From a virus: 29,295 nt of DNA. The stretch lies in the IMG/VR virus record IMGVR_UViG_3300030524_000001. One strand, written 5' to 3'. The notes under the pieces are model-generated. The model was not told the origin of the DNA. It saw only the letters and a program-made list of their open reading frames with translations, and did not search any database. The first letter of the stretch is position 1; the number at the start of each line of letters is the position of its first letter. The position numbers and the translations under genes are program-made. Positions 3,521-5,772 of the stretch are shown in pieces.

Positions 3521-3540
3521 AGCATCGCCCCCACATGTTG

Positions 3541-3614
3541 AGCCCCGGACAGGAATTGAACCTGTGACCTCCGAATTACGAAGACGGCGCTCTGCCAAAC
3601 TGAGCTACCGAGGC
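3541..3614 (-). tRNA. tRNA-Thr(CGT), weak anticodon stem
   Basis: GCCTCGG/CCGGGGC acceptor, GCTC/GAGC D-stem, TT-CGT-AA loop, ACAGG-TTCAATT-CCTGT T-arm; only 3 of 5 anticodon-stem pairs. Confidence 0.85.
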
Positions 3615-3746
3615 AAGCGACCGCCGGTGCGCGGTGCGAAGATCCGCGACTCACCGGCAGTGCCCGGGAGGTGCTCGCCAAGCTGAGCTTCGCCGCAGCC
3701 ATCCGGCCGCGACGGCGGGATTCGAACCCGCGCCATTCTCCCTACG
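3615..3746 (-). ncRNA. Circularly permuted tRNA-like RNA (YrlA-like topology) plus 3' hairpin
   Basis: GGGAG, T-arm, 10-bp acceptor hairpin closed by GGAT, D-arm, CTCCC (3742 to 3666), then a hairpin at 3661-3620. Confidence 0.7.
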
Positions 3747-3819
3747 CTGGCCCGGCAGGAATCGAACCTGCGACGCTCCCGTTAACAGCGGGACGCTCTG
3801 CCTACTGAGCTACGAGCCA
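3747..3819 (-). tRNA. tRNA-Asn(GTT)
   Basis: Full cloverleaf TGGCTCG/CGGGCCA, TCCCG-CT-GTT-AA-CGGGA, G73; CCA not encoded. Confidence 0.95.
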
Positions 3820-3822
3820 TCA

Positions 3823-3895
3823 GGTGACCGACGGGGTTCGAACCCGCAACCACCGCGACCACAACGCGGCGCTCGACCAGTTGAGCTGCGGTCAC
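3823..3895 (-). tRNA. tRNA-His(GTG)
   Basis: GTGACCG/CGGTCAC, CCGCG-TT-GTG-GT-CGCGG, C73; C at position 8, no encoded G-1. Confidence 0.92.
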
Positions 3896-3897
3896 AG

Positions 3898-3969
3898 TAG
3901 CGGGAGCGGGGATTGAACCCGCGACCTAAGGCTTATGGGGCCCTCGCGCTACCGCTGCGCCATCCCGCT
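3898..3969 (-). tRNA. tRNA-Met(CAT), atypical
   Basis: AGCGGGA/TCCCGCT, AGGGC-CC-CAT-AA-GCCTT, GCGGG-TTCAATC-CCCGC, A73. Confidence 0.9.
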
Positions 3970-4536: not shown

Positions 4537-5310
4537 TTATGCGGCGGTGGTCTCTTGGACACACTCCGCCGCGGCTGAGATTACGGCAAACCGATCTTCG
4601 GCGCTAGCCCGCTCGGCAATCCGGTGCTTCTCGGTGAGTTCCTTCGACCAGGCCATGTACTCGGCCTCGGTCATGAGGTTCCCGCAGGCGACGTTTCTGC
4701 ACTCGACGTAGTCTTCGCCGTCGCCGTAGAACAGGGCCCGCCAGTCGCACTTGGGACACGGCGCAGATCGCTGCTCCAGTCTGGCGTCCCGCCGGGTGAA
4801 CCGTGTCGCCGCCCGGTGCCAGTACGAGATCTGGGAGGCCGGGTTCGCGGAGTCCCGGTCGTGGGCTTCGGTCGCGGCGGGGTGGAAGGTCAGCGACCAG
4901 TCGAGGTGGGTCAGAAGGAACGTCACTGCGCCGGTCGCGGTCTGGCCTTCGCGCCCACGGTCCGGGCGGAAGTTGAGGTGCCGCAACTGGCGGATGTCGT
5001 CCTCCAGCTCGGTGAGGCCACCGACGATCAGGTCGGTCATGAGCCGGGCTGCCTGCCCTGGCCAGACGGCTTCGGGTGCGCGGCCGATCGTGCCGACCTT
5101 GTCGCCGGCGCGGGTGCCGTTGACGGCTTCGAGCCAGACTGCGGCGAGGAGTTCGGGGAGTTCGGCGAGCTGGTGGTAGGCGCGACCCATGCAGCTCAAG
5201 CAGTGCACGGGCGTTCCCCAGACTGGGCTGAGTTCGTGGGGCAGGTCGGCGAGTTCGGCTTTCCGCCAGGCGTTGTTGTGGGTTCCAGGGCACGGCGTGA
5301 GGGCAGGCAC
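4537..5310 (-). CDS. Zn-ribbon protein, putative late-gene regulator
   Basis: GGGAG RBS and GTG 5310; C-terminal CPKC...C...C, N-terminal C..CLSC; lies just before the HTH gene, tRNAs and late genes. Confidence 0.65.
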   Translation of the reverse strand: MPALTPCPGTHNNAWRKAELADLPHELSPVWGTPVHCLSCMGRAYHQLAELPELLAAVWLEAVNGTRAGDKVGTIGRAPEAVWPGQAARLMTDLIVGGLTELEDDIRQLRHLNFRPDRGREGQTATGAVTFLLTHLDWSLTFHPAATEAHDRDSANPASQISYWHRAATRFTRRDARLEQRSAPCPKCDWRALFYGDGEDYVECRNVACGNLMTEAEYMAWSKELTEKHRIAERASAEDRFAVISAAAECVQETTAA

Positions 5311-5550
5311 GAGACAGACTCCCGGTGGGTCAGGAGCGGCAGGAATGAGCCCAGTATGCGCCTGATGCGGCGGATCACGTGCGTGACCTGCGCGGAGCGT
5401 ACTTCGGCCCCGGTCGCCGGGGGGAGGGCGGCCGGGGCCGGAGTCTTGCCGACGCGGATCGGCGTACAACCAGCATGCGCCGGACCTGTTCGTCCGCGCA
5501 GGCGAATCAGGCTGTTTCGCGTGCGTAGCAGGTGACAGTGCGTCACTCTG

Positions 5551-5772
5551 ATGTTCATGGGGACGACGGTGCTGCTGAAAGTCGACACGGAGCCCGAGGC
5601 CCAGGCGTGGGTGACGGTGCTGCGGACCCTCGGCCTGGACGTCGGCCGCCCGTCCAACTCGCCTGCCGTGTCCGGTGACGGGCGGTGGCTGATCCGGGCC
5701 CGCGCACCAGAGGCTCAGCGCGCGCAGCGGCACGACGACCGGACGTGCACCATCCCGAACGAAGCCTCATAG
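5551..5772 (+). CDS. Small hypothetical protein, opposite strand
   Basis: GC3-rich N-terminal part; 3' end overlaps the convergent gene. Confidence 0.5.
   Translation: MFMGTTVLLKVDTEPEAQAWVTVLRTLGLDVGRPSNSPAVSGDGRWLIRARAPEAQRAQRHDDRTCTIPNEAS

What the first reader, a model, noticed from the sequence alone, without database searches (positions are those of the whole stretch)
3615..3746. Circularly permuted, anticodon-less tRNA-like RNA inside a phage tRNA array
Seen (minus strand): GGGAG (3742-3738), linker AATGGC, canonical T-arm GCGGG-TTCGAAT-CCCGC (3731-3715), CGTCGCGGCC-GGAT-GGCTGCGGCG (10-bp acceptor-like stem closed by a tetraloop), AA, D-arm GCTC-AGCTTGGC-GAGC, AC, CTCCC (3670-3666, pairs with the opening GGGAG). 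All four tRNA stems form, but in the order T, acceptor, D, with the chain opened at the anticodon loop. A separate long hairpin (3661-3620) follows. It fills the spacer between tRNA-Asn and tRNA-Thr, so normal tRNA processing should release a ~130-nt RNA. Established: this topology is that of the tRNA-like domain of bacterial YrlA Y RNAs. Here I see no Ro60-binding stem (no GNCGAA-type 5' motif) and no Ro/TROVE gene in the window. Permuted tRNA genes are known from some algae and an archaeon. Inference: a Ro-independent tRNA mimic or decoy for tRNA-targeting defences, or a precursor cut into a two-piece tRNA ending G73-C-C.
Basis: partly seen in the sequence, partly recalled or inferred. Interest (0 to 1): 0.9.

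Follow-up and report, generated by a model that had tools for sequence, protein, structure and literature searches.

The report
Ro60-less phage tRNA-mimic RNA
A soil actinophage carries, among its tRNA genes, a conserved 132-base RNA built like a tRNA turned inside out with no anticodon, plus a conserved hairpin; it is a variant of the known YrlA "Y RNA" tRNA mimics that has lost the part that docks the Ro60 protein and occurs only in genomes without Ro60.

Summary
Minus strand 3742-3666 folds as closing stem, T arm, closed acceptor arm and D arm. A long hairpin follows (3665-3615).

It is not a decaying tRNA pair. I found three full-length homologues:
- a 76-kb viral contig;
- two Streptacidiphilus prophages, one syntenic with this phage.

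Across the four, 96.9% of pair cells pair, against 34-50% in shifted controls. Twelve pairs change on both sides, against 0-2.

The core is YrlA-type, but the element fails YrlA membership:
- only 4 nt (CGNA) separate it from the upstream tRNA, so no Ro60-binding terminal stem can form;
- the two phage records have no TROVE/Ro60 gene, and neither do the two whole lysogen genomes;
- the local Ro60 "handle" motif was not found in the lysogens, the viral contig or (by profile only) this record.

Seven sister phage records carry a TROVE gene; in the five where an RNA was found, a YrlA-like RNA lies 0.8-1.2 kb upstream of the TROVE match.

The 3' hairpin is distinctive. Its apical loop keeps an invariant CUUCGC.

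Function is inferred: a Ro60-independent tRNA mimic, released by tRNA processing, whose hairpin docks an unknown factor. This scan has met handle-bearing, Ro60-linked relatives many times. I rate this a new variant of a known kind.

The parts
3743..3746 (-). 4-nt leader CGUA between the discriminator of tRNA-Asn and the element. It is CGNA in all four family members.
3738..3742 (-). Closing (anticodon-stem-like) helix, 5' strand GGGAG. It pairs with 3670-3666.
   Evidence: Homologues have GGGGA/UCCUC or GGGGA/UCUCC: one pair changed on both sides in the model-fitted alignment, two in my manual register for window versus L044.
3732..3737 (-). Variable-loop equivalent AAUGGC. C48 can form the Levitt pair with G15.
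   Evidence: read from the sequence
3715..3731 (-). T arm GCGGG-UUCGAAU-CCCGC, the stem sequence typical of YrlA.
   Evidence: L088 has GCCGG/CCGGC, a compensatory change. A metagenome variant has G57>A.
3691..3714 (-). Closed acceptor arm: 7 bp (U1.G72 ... G7-C66), 3 extra pairs (G73-C74-C75 with G-G-C) and a GGAU loop.
   Evidence: Four of seven pairs change on both sides across the family. Variant changes fall in the loop, or turn C74 into U and keep a G.U pair.
3673..3690 (-). Positions 8-9 (AA) and the D arm GCUC-AGCUUGGC-GAGC, with G18 G19 present and A21 missing.
3666..3672 (-). AC linker and the closing helix 3' strand CUCCC.
3615..3665 (-). Conserved long hairpin: GGGC / 10-bp stem ACUGCCGGUG:CACCGGCGGU / AGU bulge / 5-bp stem CGCGG:CCGCG / 9-nt loop AUCUUCGCA / C / GCUU. 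The CUUCGC core of the loop is invariant in four members.
   Evidence: The inner stem becomes CGUGG:CCACG in L158, a compensatory change.
3747..3819 (-). Upstream tRNA-Asn(GUU). Processing of its 3' end should set the 5' end of the element.
3541..3614 (-). Downstream tRNA-Thr(CGU). RNase P cleavage at its 5' end should set the 3' end of the element.

Best explanation
The element is a real, conserved, structured non-coding RNA gene of a small group of temperate Streptacidiphilus phages. It has two modules.

1. A YrlA-type tRNA mimic: a cloverleaf in the order closing stem, variable loop, T arm, closed acceptor arm, D arm, closing stem. The elbow-forming residues are kept. There is no anticodon loop and no free CCA end.
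2. A roughly 19-24-bp hairpin attached to the 3' strand of the closing stem. It has a conserved bulge and an invariant CUUCGC core in its loop. If it stacks on the closing stem, the RNA has the overall shape of YrlA (tRNA-like head on a long rod). The chain break then lies at the junction instead of the rod's tip, and no Ro60 site is present.

Inferred steps:
- The RNA is transcribed with the tRNA operon.
- It is cut out by the enzymes that trim the flanking tRNAs: 3' processing of the upstream tRNA, and RNase P at the downstream tRNA where there is one.
- It works without Ro60 as a tRNA look-alike that cannot be decoded or cut in the anticodon.
- The head engages a factor that recognises the tRNA body, and the hairpin docks a second, still unknown and probably host-encoded, factor. 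This would be an adaptor or decoy in the manner of Y RNAs.

Shown: the structure, its conservation, its YrlA-like core, and the absence of a TROVE gene (all four genomes) and of any detectable handle.
Inferred: processing, sealing of the acceptor arm, partners and biological role.
For: Structure and conservation:
- All stems are read directly and recovered by RNAfold.
- Full-length homologues are L044 (viral contig, between tRNA-Met and tRNA-Trp), L088 (Streptacidiphilus sp. EB129 prophage) and L158 (a second Streptacidiphilus genome, last in the array Met-Leu-Leu-Ser-Ser-Gln-X).
- On the four-sequence alignment 96.9% of cells pair, against 34-50% when partners are slid. Twelve pairs change on both sides, against 0-2. 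No shuffle of 500 reaches the observed values.
- Flanking tRNAs differ in every member. The EB129 prophage is syntenic with this phage (terminase 90% identical) and keeps the element although it has no ARAGORN-detectable tRNA beside it.
- A ~97% variant in an independent metagenome differs at four places inside the element. All four are loop positions or keep a wobble pair.

YrlA-type core:
- The Rfam YrlA model aligns the T arm, acceptor arm and D arm.
- The same single-sequence model hits YrlA-like RNAs 0.8-1.2 kb upstream of the TROVE match in sister phages.

Ro60 independence:
- No TROVE match in the own record, in L044's 94%-complete record, or in either whole lysogen genome.
- 12 of 23 genomes of the genus do have TROVE.
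- The Ro60-locus handle GGUGCG..CGGAUACUUC is found twice in each of two TROVE-positive genomes, and not at all in both lysogens or L044's record. A handle profile finds nothing in the own record either.

Processing:
- The 4-nt CGNA leader after a tRNA 3' end is present in all four, and a retained acceptor/T minihelix stands there in L088.
Against: - No expression data. The only RNA-library contig touching the element bridges 3535-3656 and could be DNA carry-over or an unprocessed precursor.
- There are only four diverged sequences plus one near-identical variant, and the alignment was fitted to the model's structure, so pair counts lean towards it.
- No partner protein was identified. Only four genes are shared by all four genomes, and two of them (the 257-aa protein and the MerR-like gene just upstream) also occur in relatives that lack the element.
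- The own record is 76 kb of a contig that earlier notes imply is about 100 kb, so a Ro60 gene in the missing part is not strictly excluded. The syntenic lysogen argues against it.
- The hairpin shows a faint resemblance to the Ro60 handle (CCGGUG...CGGAU-CUUC), so use of Ro60 supplied in trans cannot be ruled out.
- This copy has A8 and lacks A21, so its tRNA-like tertiary fold may be weaker than in the other three.
Confidence: 0.55

Rival explanations
1. A Ro60-dependent Y RNA after all. On this reading the hairpin is a re-packaged Ro60 docking site. The RNA would use, or titrate, Ro60 supplied in trans by the host or by a co-resident Ro60-carrying prophage. One version is a decoy used in conflict between phages.
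For: - Ro60 with YrlA-like RNAs is common in this phage group and genus: 7 sister phage records carry TROVE, and 12 of 23 Streptacidiphilus genomes do.
- The hairpin's 5' strand plus loop (CCGGUG-AGUCG-CGGAU-CUUC) loosely resembles the local handle CCGGUGCGCAGGCAACGGAUACUUC.
Against: - The resemblance is not significant. A handle profile does not rank the hairpin among its hits in any carrier genome.
- Gapped alignment against shuffles gives p of about 0.03, 0.07, 0.05 and 0.28 for the four members, and one of these aligns to a different place.
- Neither lysogen that maintains the element has TROVE or any handle copy.
- The published Ro60 site needs a helix formed by the 5' and 3' ends with GNCGAAN0-1G in the 5' strand (PMC4201824; 10.1101/312249). 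That cannot form here.
Confidence: 0.15
2. A precursor that is cut into a two-piece tRNA-like molecule. RNase P would cleave 5' of position 1 in the acceptor arm, the loop would be trimmed and CCA added, as shown for Mycobacterium smegmatis YrlA. This would give a molecule with a free, perhaps chargeable, 3' end.
For: - All four members keep exactly seven acceptor pairs before the arm's extension. A 7-bp stem is what makes M. smegmatis YrlA an RNase P substrate that is then CCA-added in vivo (PMC4201824; 10.1101/312249).
- The 1-72 pair is always weak: U.G, U-A, U.G and C x A.
- Loop length varies from 10 to 21 nt, as a spacer would.
Against: - By my manual pairing (read from the sequences), the nucleotides just 5' of position 1 in all four are paired with the 3' side or with a capping mini-hairpin: 3 bp + GGAU; 3 bp + GAA; 5 bp + UGCA in two. 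This leaves no single-stranded leader.
- Position 1 is U or C rather than the usual G.
- G73-C-C is not conserved.
- No identity element that works without an anticodon is present: no G3.U70, no G-1:C73, no long variable arm (read from the sequences).
Confidence: 0.2
3. Non-functional debris: the 3' half of one tRNA gene and the 5' half of an identical tandem copy, left by deletions in a decaying array.
For: - Tandem identical tRNA-Gly genes in Streptomycetaceae chromosomes score 44-50 bits with the family model, because 3' half + spacer + 5' half of the same tRNA mimics the fold.
- The tRNA-His/tRNA-Asn junction in this window scores as well on Rfam YrlA as the element does: 25.2 against 24.0 bits.
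- Such a duplication is a plausible origin for the element.
Against: - The missing halves are absent in all four members.
- Stems are kept by compensatory changes.
- The element survives between phages whose neighbouring protein is only 40% identical, and where all flanking tRNAs differ or are gone.
- The attached hairpin is the best-conserved part.
Confidence: 0.03
4. A permuted or split gene for a working, decoding tRNA, of the Cyanidioschyzon or archaeal type or repaired by RtcB.
For: - The order '3' half then 5' half' is that of permuted tRNA genes.
- Both hosts encode RtcB elsewhere in the chromosome.
Against: - There are no anticodon-loop residues. Joining the ends would give GGG+CGNA, with no U33.
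- There is no bulge-helix-bulge motif.
- The phage records have no RtcB.
- The 50-nt hairpin sits where the loop should be.
Confidence: 0.01

Closest known systems
YrlA (Y RNA-like A; Rfam RF02553; Chen et al. 2014, PMC4201824; structure in Wang et al. 2018, 10.1101/312249, PDB 6cu1)
   Same: - tRNA-like domain in the permuted order: closing stem, T arm, closed acceptor arm, D arm.
- The same near-invariant T-stem (GCGGG/CCCGC) and D-stem (GCUC/GAGC) sequences.
- Elbow residues kept.
- A long helix extends from the anticodon-stem position.
- YrlA-like RNAs lie upstream of Ro60 genes in sister phages of the same group.
   Different: - No terminal stem formed by the 5' and 3' ends.
- No GNCGAAN0-1G motif or local handle.
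- No Ro60 gene in the phage records or the lysogens.
- The long helix is a hairpin on the 3' side only, with its own conserved CUUCGC loop.
- Rfam score is 24 bits against a gathering score of 69.
Mycobacterium smegmatis YrlA, cut by RNase P and CCA-added (Chen et al. 2014)
   Same: An actinobacterial context and a 7-bp acceptor stem, so the same processing is conceivable.
   Different: That RNA is Ro60-bound and encoded next to rsr. Here the acceptor arm is extended and capped in every member, and no processing data exist.
YrlA-like element in the tRNA array of Mycobacterium phage Phabba (NC_054714, 93879-93942)
   Same: It lies in a spacer of a phage tRNA array, has the same core (31 bits with my model, 40 bits with Rfam YrlA) and is unannotated.
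   Different: Phabba encodes Ro60 (131 kb). Its element has flanking sequence able to form a terminal stem and a stem-loop before the T arm.
Handle-bearing Y-like RNAs with permuted tRNA modules beside Ro60-like genes in phages
   Same: A permuted, acceptor-closed tRNA mimic inside phage tRNA operons, built as a tRNA-like interior plus a protein-docking part.
   Different: Those sit on a terminal stem 'handle' and next to a Ro60-like gene. This one has neither, and carries a different 3' hairpin module.
Two-piece (circularly permuted) tmRNA genes
   Same: The same gene order (T arm and acceptor 3' strand, intervening loop, acceptor 5' strand), and a tRNA-like domain without an anticodon arm.
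   Different: - A full D arm is present.
- No G3.U70 and no tag reading frame with a stop.
- ARAGORN calls no tmRNA.
Permuted and split tRNA genes (Cyanidioschyzon merolae, Nanoarchaeum)
   Same: The 3' half is encoded before the 5' half.
   Different: Those keep the anticodon loop and make decoding tRNAs through a splicing endonuclease and ligase. This element has no anticodon loop.

Membership tests
YrlA (RF02553) | tRNA-like domain with T arm, closed acceptor arm and D arm in permuted order, closed by an anticodon-stem-like helix | tested here: met
   Read directly and folded. Rfam aligns model positions 27-81. Re-ordered halves are called as tRNA. Covariation supports it.
YrlA (RF02553) | Long stem formed by pairing of the RNA's 5' and 3' ends that holds the Ro60 site, with GNCGAAN0-1G in the 5' strand (PMC4201824; 10.1101/312249) | tested here: not met
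   Only 4 nt lie between the upstream tRNA and the closing stem in all four members. The motif appears only by accident inside the acceptor strand of this copy.
YrlA (RF02553) | Encoded within about 4 kb of, and on the same strand as, a Ro60/TROVE gene | tested here: not met
   No TROVE in the own 76-kb record, in L044's record or in two whole lysogen genomes. Controls rang (Deinococcus, Bacteroides), and sister phages were positive.
YrlA (RF02553) | Rfam gathering score of 69 bits | tested here: not met
   24.0 bits, a partial match. The Ro60-adjacent RNAs of this clade also stay below the threshold at 31.8-48.8 bits, so this feature alone is weak evidence.
Local Ro60-locus 'handle' RNAs of Streptacidiphilus and their phages | 5' handle CCGGUGCG(C/A)AGGCnnCGGAUACUUC | tested here: not met
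   The handle profile does not find the element. Alignment against shuffles is not significant. The pattern is absent from the carrier genomes but present twice in each of two TROVE-positive genomes.
tRNA (RF00005) | Native order of arms with a 7-nt anticodon loop | tested here: not met
   No tRNA call by ARAGORN or Rfam at 3615-3746. There are no anticodon-loop residues.
Permuted tRNA genes (algal/archaeal type) | Both halves carry the anticodon-loop residues and a processing motif that allows re-joining | tested here: not met
   The sequence at both ends (CGNA......CUCCC-GGGC hairpin) gives no U33 or anticodon.
Two-piece tmRNA | G3.U70 alanine identity, a resume codon and a tag reading frame | tested here: not met
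   The 3-70 pair is C-G or G-C in all four. No tmRNA was called.
Y RNA in the functional sense | Bound by a Ro60-family protein in vivo | not testable with these tools
   Needs immunoprecipitation or a pull-down.

The most novel reading that the evidence does not exclude
A Ro60-independent class of phage Y-like RNA. On this reading the YrlA tRNA-mimic head has been re-mounted on a new docking hairpin (CUUCGC loop). It would serve as an uncleavable tRNA decoy or adaptor for a host factor. One candidate role is protecting the phage's translation from enzymes that recognise the tRNA body. Another is interfering with the Ro60/Y-RNA particles of rival prophages. If so, the tRNA-like module of Y RNAs would be an autonomous functional unit that phages couple to different partners.
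Probability: 0.25. Interest if true: 0.75.

Novelty: new variant of a known kind. Interest (0 to 1): 0.55.

Why it matters
[quoted passage not shown] All characterised examples come tied to Ro60. Here the same module has been kept by selection in genomes that have neither Ro60 nor the Ro60 handle, and it is joined to a different conserved hairpin. That gives a natural experiment in which the module's Ro60-independent function and partner could be identified. Two lysogens that appear to be cultured isolates (Streptacidiphilus sp. EB129 and a second Streptacidiphilus species) carry it, so it may be experimentally tractable. It also adds to the evidence that phage tRNA operons hide unannotated structured RNAs that tRNA finders skip.

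Tried and rejected
- Exact and degenerate DNA patterns for the element in viral contigs: only L044's contig was a true hit. The other ten loci were tRNA junctions, or, in L069, other YrlA-like cores.
- Hairpin pattern in genome and metagenome collections: 81 loci, of which only L088 is the RNA. The rest share a 21-mer that I read as a coding coincidence in GC-rich genes.
- blastn of the element against phages and plasmids: only the YrlA-like cores of Phabba and RTH11.
- First locus search with the over-long ORF of the neighbouring protein found nothing. An alignment of its 257-aa homologues worked.
- DUF2828 (Ro60-like) search: no hit, but its controls did not ring, so it is uninformative.
- Moderate model hits in 60 of 151 Streptomycetaceae genomes. 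Those I inspected were tandem tRNA-Gly genes or handle-bearing Y RNAs, not this family. The rest were not examined.
- Hairpin equals Ro60 handle: profile and shuffle tests were not significant.
- Partner protein by shared gene content of the four carriers: nothing specific.
- The RF2-tail mini-protein as an SmpB-like partner: present in the EB129 prophage, absent from L044's record and the second lysogen.
- RtcB: absent from the phage records, present in both host chromosomes, uninformative.
- Loop CUUCGC pairing with GCGAAG elsewhere in the RNA: a complementary 5-6-mer exists in each member but at different places, so I dropped it.
- attP remnant: rejected, because the element is internal to both prophages.
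- Simple promoter and terminator scans found nothing.
- Metatranscriptome run X24: only low-identity tRNA pieces and one contig over 3535-3656. This is not evidence of expression.
- No supplementary tables of Chen et al. 2014 are held, so I could not check whether phage YrlAs in tRNA arrays were listed there.

Full report
**What is there**

On the minus strand, 3746-3615 reads as follows:
- CGUA
- GGGAG
- AAUGGC
- T arm GCGGG-UUCGAAU-CCCGC
- acceptor arm CGUCGCGGCC-GGAU-GGCUGCGGCG
- AA
- D arm GCUC-AGCUUGGC-GAGC
- AC
- CUCCC
- a long hairpin: GGGC / ACUGCCGGUG / AGU / CGCGG / AUCUUCGCA / CCGCG / CACCGGCGGU / C / GCUU

RNAfold returns this fold as the minimum-energy structure, apart from two extra pairs it draws inside the D loop (-72.7 kcal/mol, z = -2.49).

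ARAGORN and Rfam find four ordinary tRNAs: Met, His, Asn and Thr. They find nothing in the 132-nt gap between Asn (3747-3819) and Thr (3541-3614).

The window lies in a 76-kb IMG/VR virus record with 69% G+C. It has DnaB, ParB, FtsK-like and DUF2637 genes, and the tRNA array runs in the same direction as its neighbours.

**Is it just tRNA debris?**

The Rfam YrlA model matches the T-acceptor-D core only partially (24 bits). The junction between tRNA-His and tRNA-Asn scores the same. Tandem identical tRNA-Gly genes in host chromosomes also imitate the fold. Homologues were therefore needed.

The element's own sequence has no near relatives in phage, plasmid or viral-contig collections. I aligned homologues of the 257-aa protein encoded just upstream and fetched 37 related viral loci.

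One of them, L044, comes from a 76-kb contig that is 94% complete, and its protein is only 40% identical. It holds a full-length copy between tRNA-Met and tRNA-Trp (74.6 bits with a model built from the window sequence alone).

A hairpin pattern scan of 185,579 species genomes gave one more true copy, in Streptacidiphilus sp. EB129 (87 bits). A model search of 151 Streptomycetaceae genomes gave a fourth, in another Streptacidiphilus (127 bits).

The EB129 copy lies in a prophage syntenic with this phage: terminase 90% and portal 83% identical, same flanking genes.

**Covariation**

On the four-sequence alignment:
- 96.9% of pair cells are standard pairs, against 34-50% when the 3' partners are slid by 1-3 columns.
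- 12 of 40 pairs change on both sides, against 0-2 in the slid controls.
- No shuffle of 500 reaches any observed measure.

Double changes occur in the closing stem, the T stem (GCGGG/CCCGC to GCCGG/CCGGC), four of seven acceptor pairs, the long stem and the inner stem of the hairpin (CGCGG/CCGCG to CGUGG/CCACG).

The alignment was fitted to the model, which favours the structure. The slid controls on the same alignment show the effect is specific.

A ~97% variant in an independent metagenome differs inside the element at four positions. All are loop positions, or change C-G to U.G.

Re-ordered around a placeholder anticodon loop, all four are called as tRNAs by ARAGORN.

The flanking tRNAs differ in every member. 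The EB129 prophage has none detectable by ARAGORN, yet keeps the element. Four nucleotides upstream of it, that prophage retains a degenerate acceptor/T-arm minihelix. This rules out the 'decaying halves' reading.

**Relation to YrlA and Ro60**

The core has the order and the near-invariant T and D stems of YrlA. The literature describes YrlA as a circularly permuted tRNA with a closed acceptor stem, mounted on a terminal stem that binds Ro60 mainly through its 5' strand (PMC4201824; 10.1101/312249).

In sister phages my model finds YrlA-like RNAs 0.8-1.2 kb upstream of the TROVE match, that is, just upstream of the gene (five records). Two further records have TROVE without a detected RNA.

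Twelve of 23 Streptacidiphilus genomes have TROVE. At these loci 2-3 sister RNAs share a handle, CCGGUGCG(C/A)AGGCnnCGGAUACUUC.

The family studied here differs in three ways:
- In all four members only CGNA separates the closing stem from the preceding tRNA, so no 5' strand exists.
- TROVE is absent from both phage records and from both whole lysogen genomes.
- The handle pattern occurs twice in each of two TROVE-positive genomes, but nowhere in the lysogens or in L044's record. A handle profile finds nothing in the own record either.

RtcB is absent from the phage records and present in the host chromosomes, which says nothing either way.

**The hairpin**

It is the best-conserved part. The bulge (G)AGU, the 5-bp inner stem and the 9-nt loop A(U/A)CUUCGC(A/C) are nearly invariant. 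The outer 10-bp stem covaries. No Rfam family matches it.

I noticed that CCGGUG...CGGAU-CUUC resembles the Ro60 handle. A handle profile does not pick it out, and gapped alignment against shuffles is marginal (p 0.03-0.28). I therefore do not rely on the resemblance.

Geometrically, the hairpin leaves the distal end of the closing stem. If it stacks there, the RNA is a tRNA-like head on a rod of about 24 bp, which is the YrlA outline, with the chain break at the junction and a loop at the tip.

**Acceptor arm: sealed or cut?**

All members keep seven pairs. The 1-72 pair is always weak (U.G, U-A, U.G, C x A).

By my manual pairing of the loop sequences, each extends the arm and caps it with a small loop:
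- 3 bp + GGAU here
- 3 bp + GAA in L158
- 5-bp mini-hairpins with UGCA loops in L044 and L088

There is no single-stranded leader before position 1, and G73-C-C is unique to this copy. I favour a sealed arm, at about 60:40 over RNase P cutting of the kind shown for M. smegmatis YrlA.

**Mechanism (inferred)**

The RNA is co-transcribed with the tRNAs and released by their processing enzymes. It presents a tRNA elbow and an acceptor/T stack, but no anticodon and no CCA. It could therefore occupy factors that recognise the tRNA body without being decoded or cleaved in the anticodon loop. The hairpin would recruit or hold a second factor.

No phage gene co-occurs specifically with the element. 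The RF2-tail mini-gene of this phage is in only one of the three other carriers. A host factor is therefore the more likely partner.

**Distribution and habitat**

I found four diverged members plus one variant. Two of 23 Streptacidiphilus species genomes carry it, and none of the other 128 Streptomycetaceae sampled. The window's DNA recurs in many peat metagenomes.

**Novelty**

YrlA and phage YrlAs have been published since 2014. This scan has repeatedly reported permuted tRNA modules on Ro60-type handles in phage tRNA arrays.

What is new is the Ro60-less, handle-less variant with its own conserved hairpin, supported by covariation. I rate it a new variant of a known kind, of moderate interest.

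**Limits**

- There are no expression data.
- Few sequences are available.
- Whole public collections could not be searched with the covariance model.
- The source contig extends beyond the 76-kb record.

Noticed in passing
L003:2962-3112 (Xanthomonas phage RTH11, OQ790161, about 75850-76000): A permuted tRNA-like core (Rfam YrlA 44 bits) appears nested where the anticodon loop of an outer tRNA-like molecule would be. The outer molecule has acceptor GCGAAUG...CCUUCGC-G-CCA and its own D and T arms. The region is unannotated, and the 312-kb jumbo phage has no TROVE gene.
   Followed up: partly
L002:2953-3095 (Mycobacterium phage Phabba, NC_054714, 93837-93979): The best YrlA match of the whole genome lies in the tRNA-array spacer between tRNA-Val and tRNA-Glu, 37 kb from the phage's Ro60 gene. 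It is not annotated in the record.
   Followed up: partly
L185-L196, L057, L058, L016, L188 (TROVE loci of Streptacidiphilus genomes and related phages): Each Ro60 locus carries 2-3 sister RNAs sharing the 5' handle CCGGUGCG(C/A)AGGCnnCGGAUACUUC (32 distinct copies). The YrlA-like ones examined also share a 3' CCGUCGCCGAC. Only some of the sister RNAs contain a tRNA-like core. All score below the Rfam YrlA gathering threshold.
   Followed up: partly
L088:5617-5675 (minus strand): A degenerate tRNA lies 4 nt upstream of the element in the EB129 prophage. It has a 7-bp acceptor stem GUGCUGC/GCAGCAC and a T arm, but no D or anticodon arm. It may be kept as a processing signal.
   Followed up: no
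L161:215-336 (minus strand; a Streptacidiphilus genome, 1.8-kb contig): A stand-alone permuted tRNA-like element closed by a 7-bp stem GAGCGGG/CCCGCUC. It has no handle, no flanking tRNAs and no CUUCGC hairpin, so it may be a third design.
   Followed up: no
window 3540-3969 and read-laying run X13: An urban-metagenome contig (6.4 kb, depth 64) holds a ~97% variant of the whole array. Differences cluster in the 35 nt between tRNA-Thr and the next gene, and in tRNA-Thr itself.
   Followed up: partly
L201 (G038:C3:227508-227630): The RF2-tail mini-gene reported earlier for this phage is also present in the syntenic EB129 prophage, about 34 kb from the RNA. It is absent from the other two carriers of the RNA.
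   Followed up: partly
window 4537-5733 (minus strand): The listed 398-aa ORF is over-extended. Homologues are about 257 aa and cysteine-rich, with invariant C7, C37, C40, C185, C188, C204 and C209. The protein is widespread in Streptomycetaceae prophages. The tRNA/X array and, in sister phages, the YrlA-Ro60 module both sit beside this gene.
   Followed up: partly
L072-L152: The 21-mer GAGTCGCGGATCTTCGCGCCG recurs in many unrelated GC-rich phyla. I read it as a coding coincidence on the reverse strand, not an RNA motif.
   Followed up: partly
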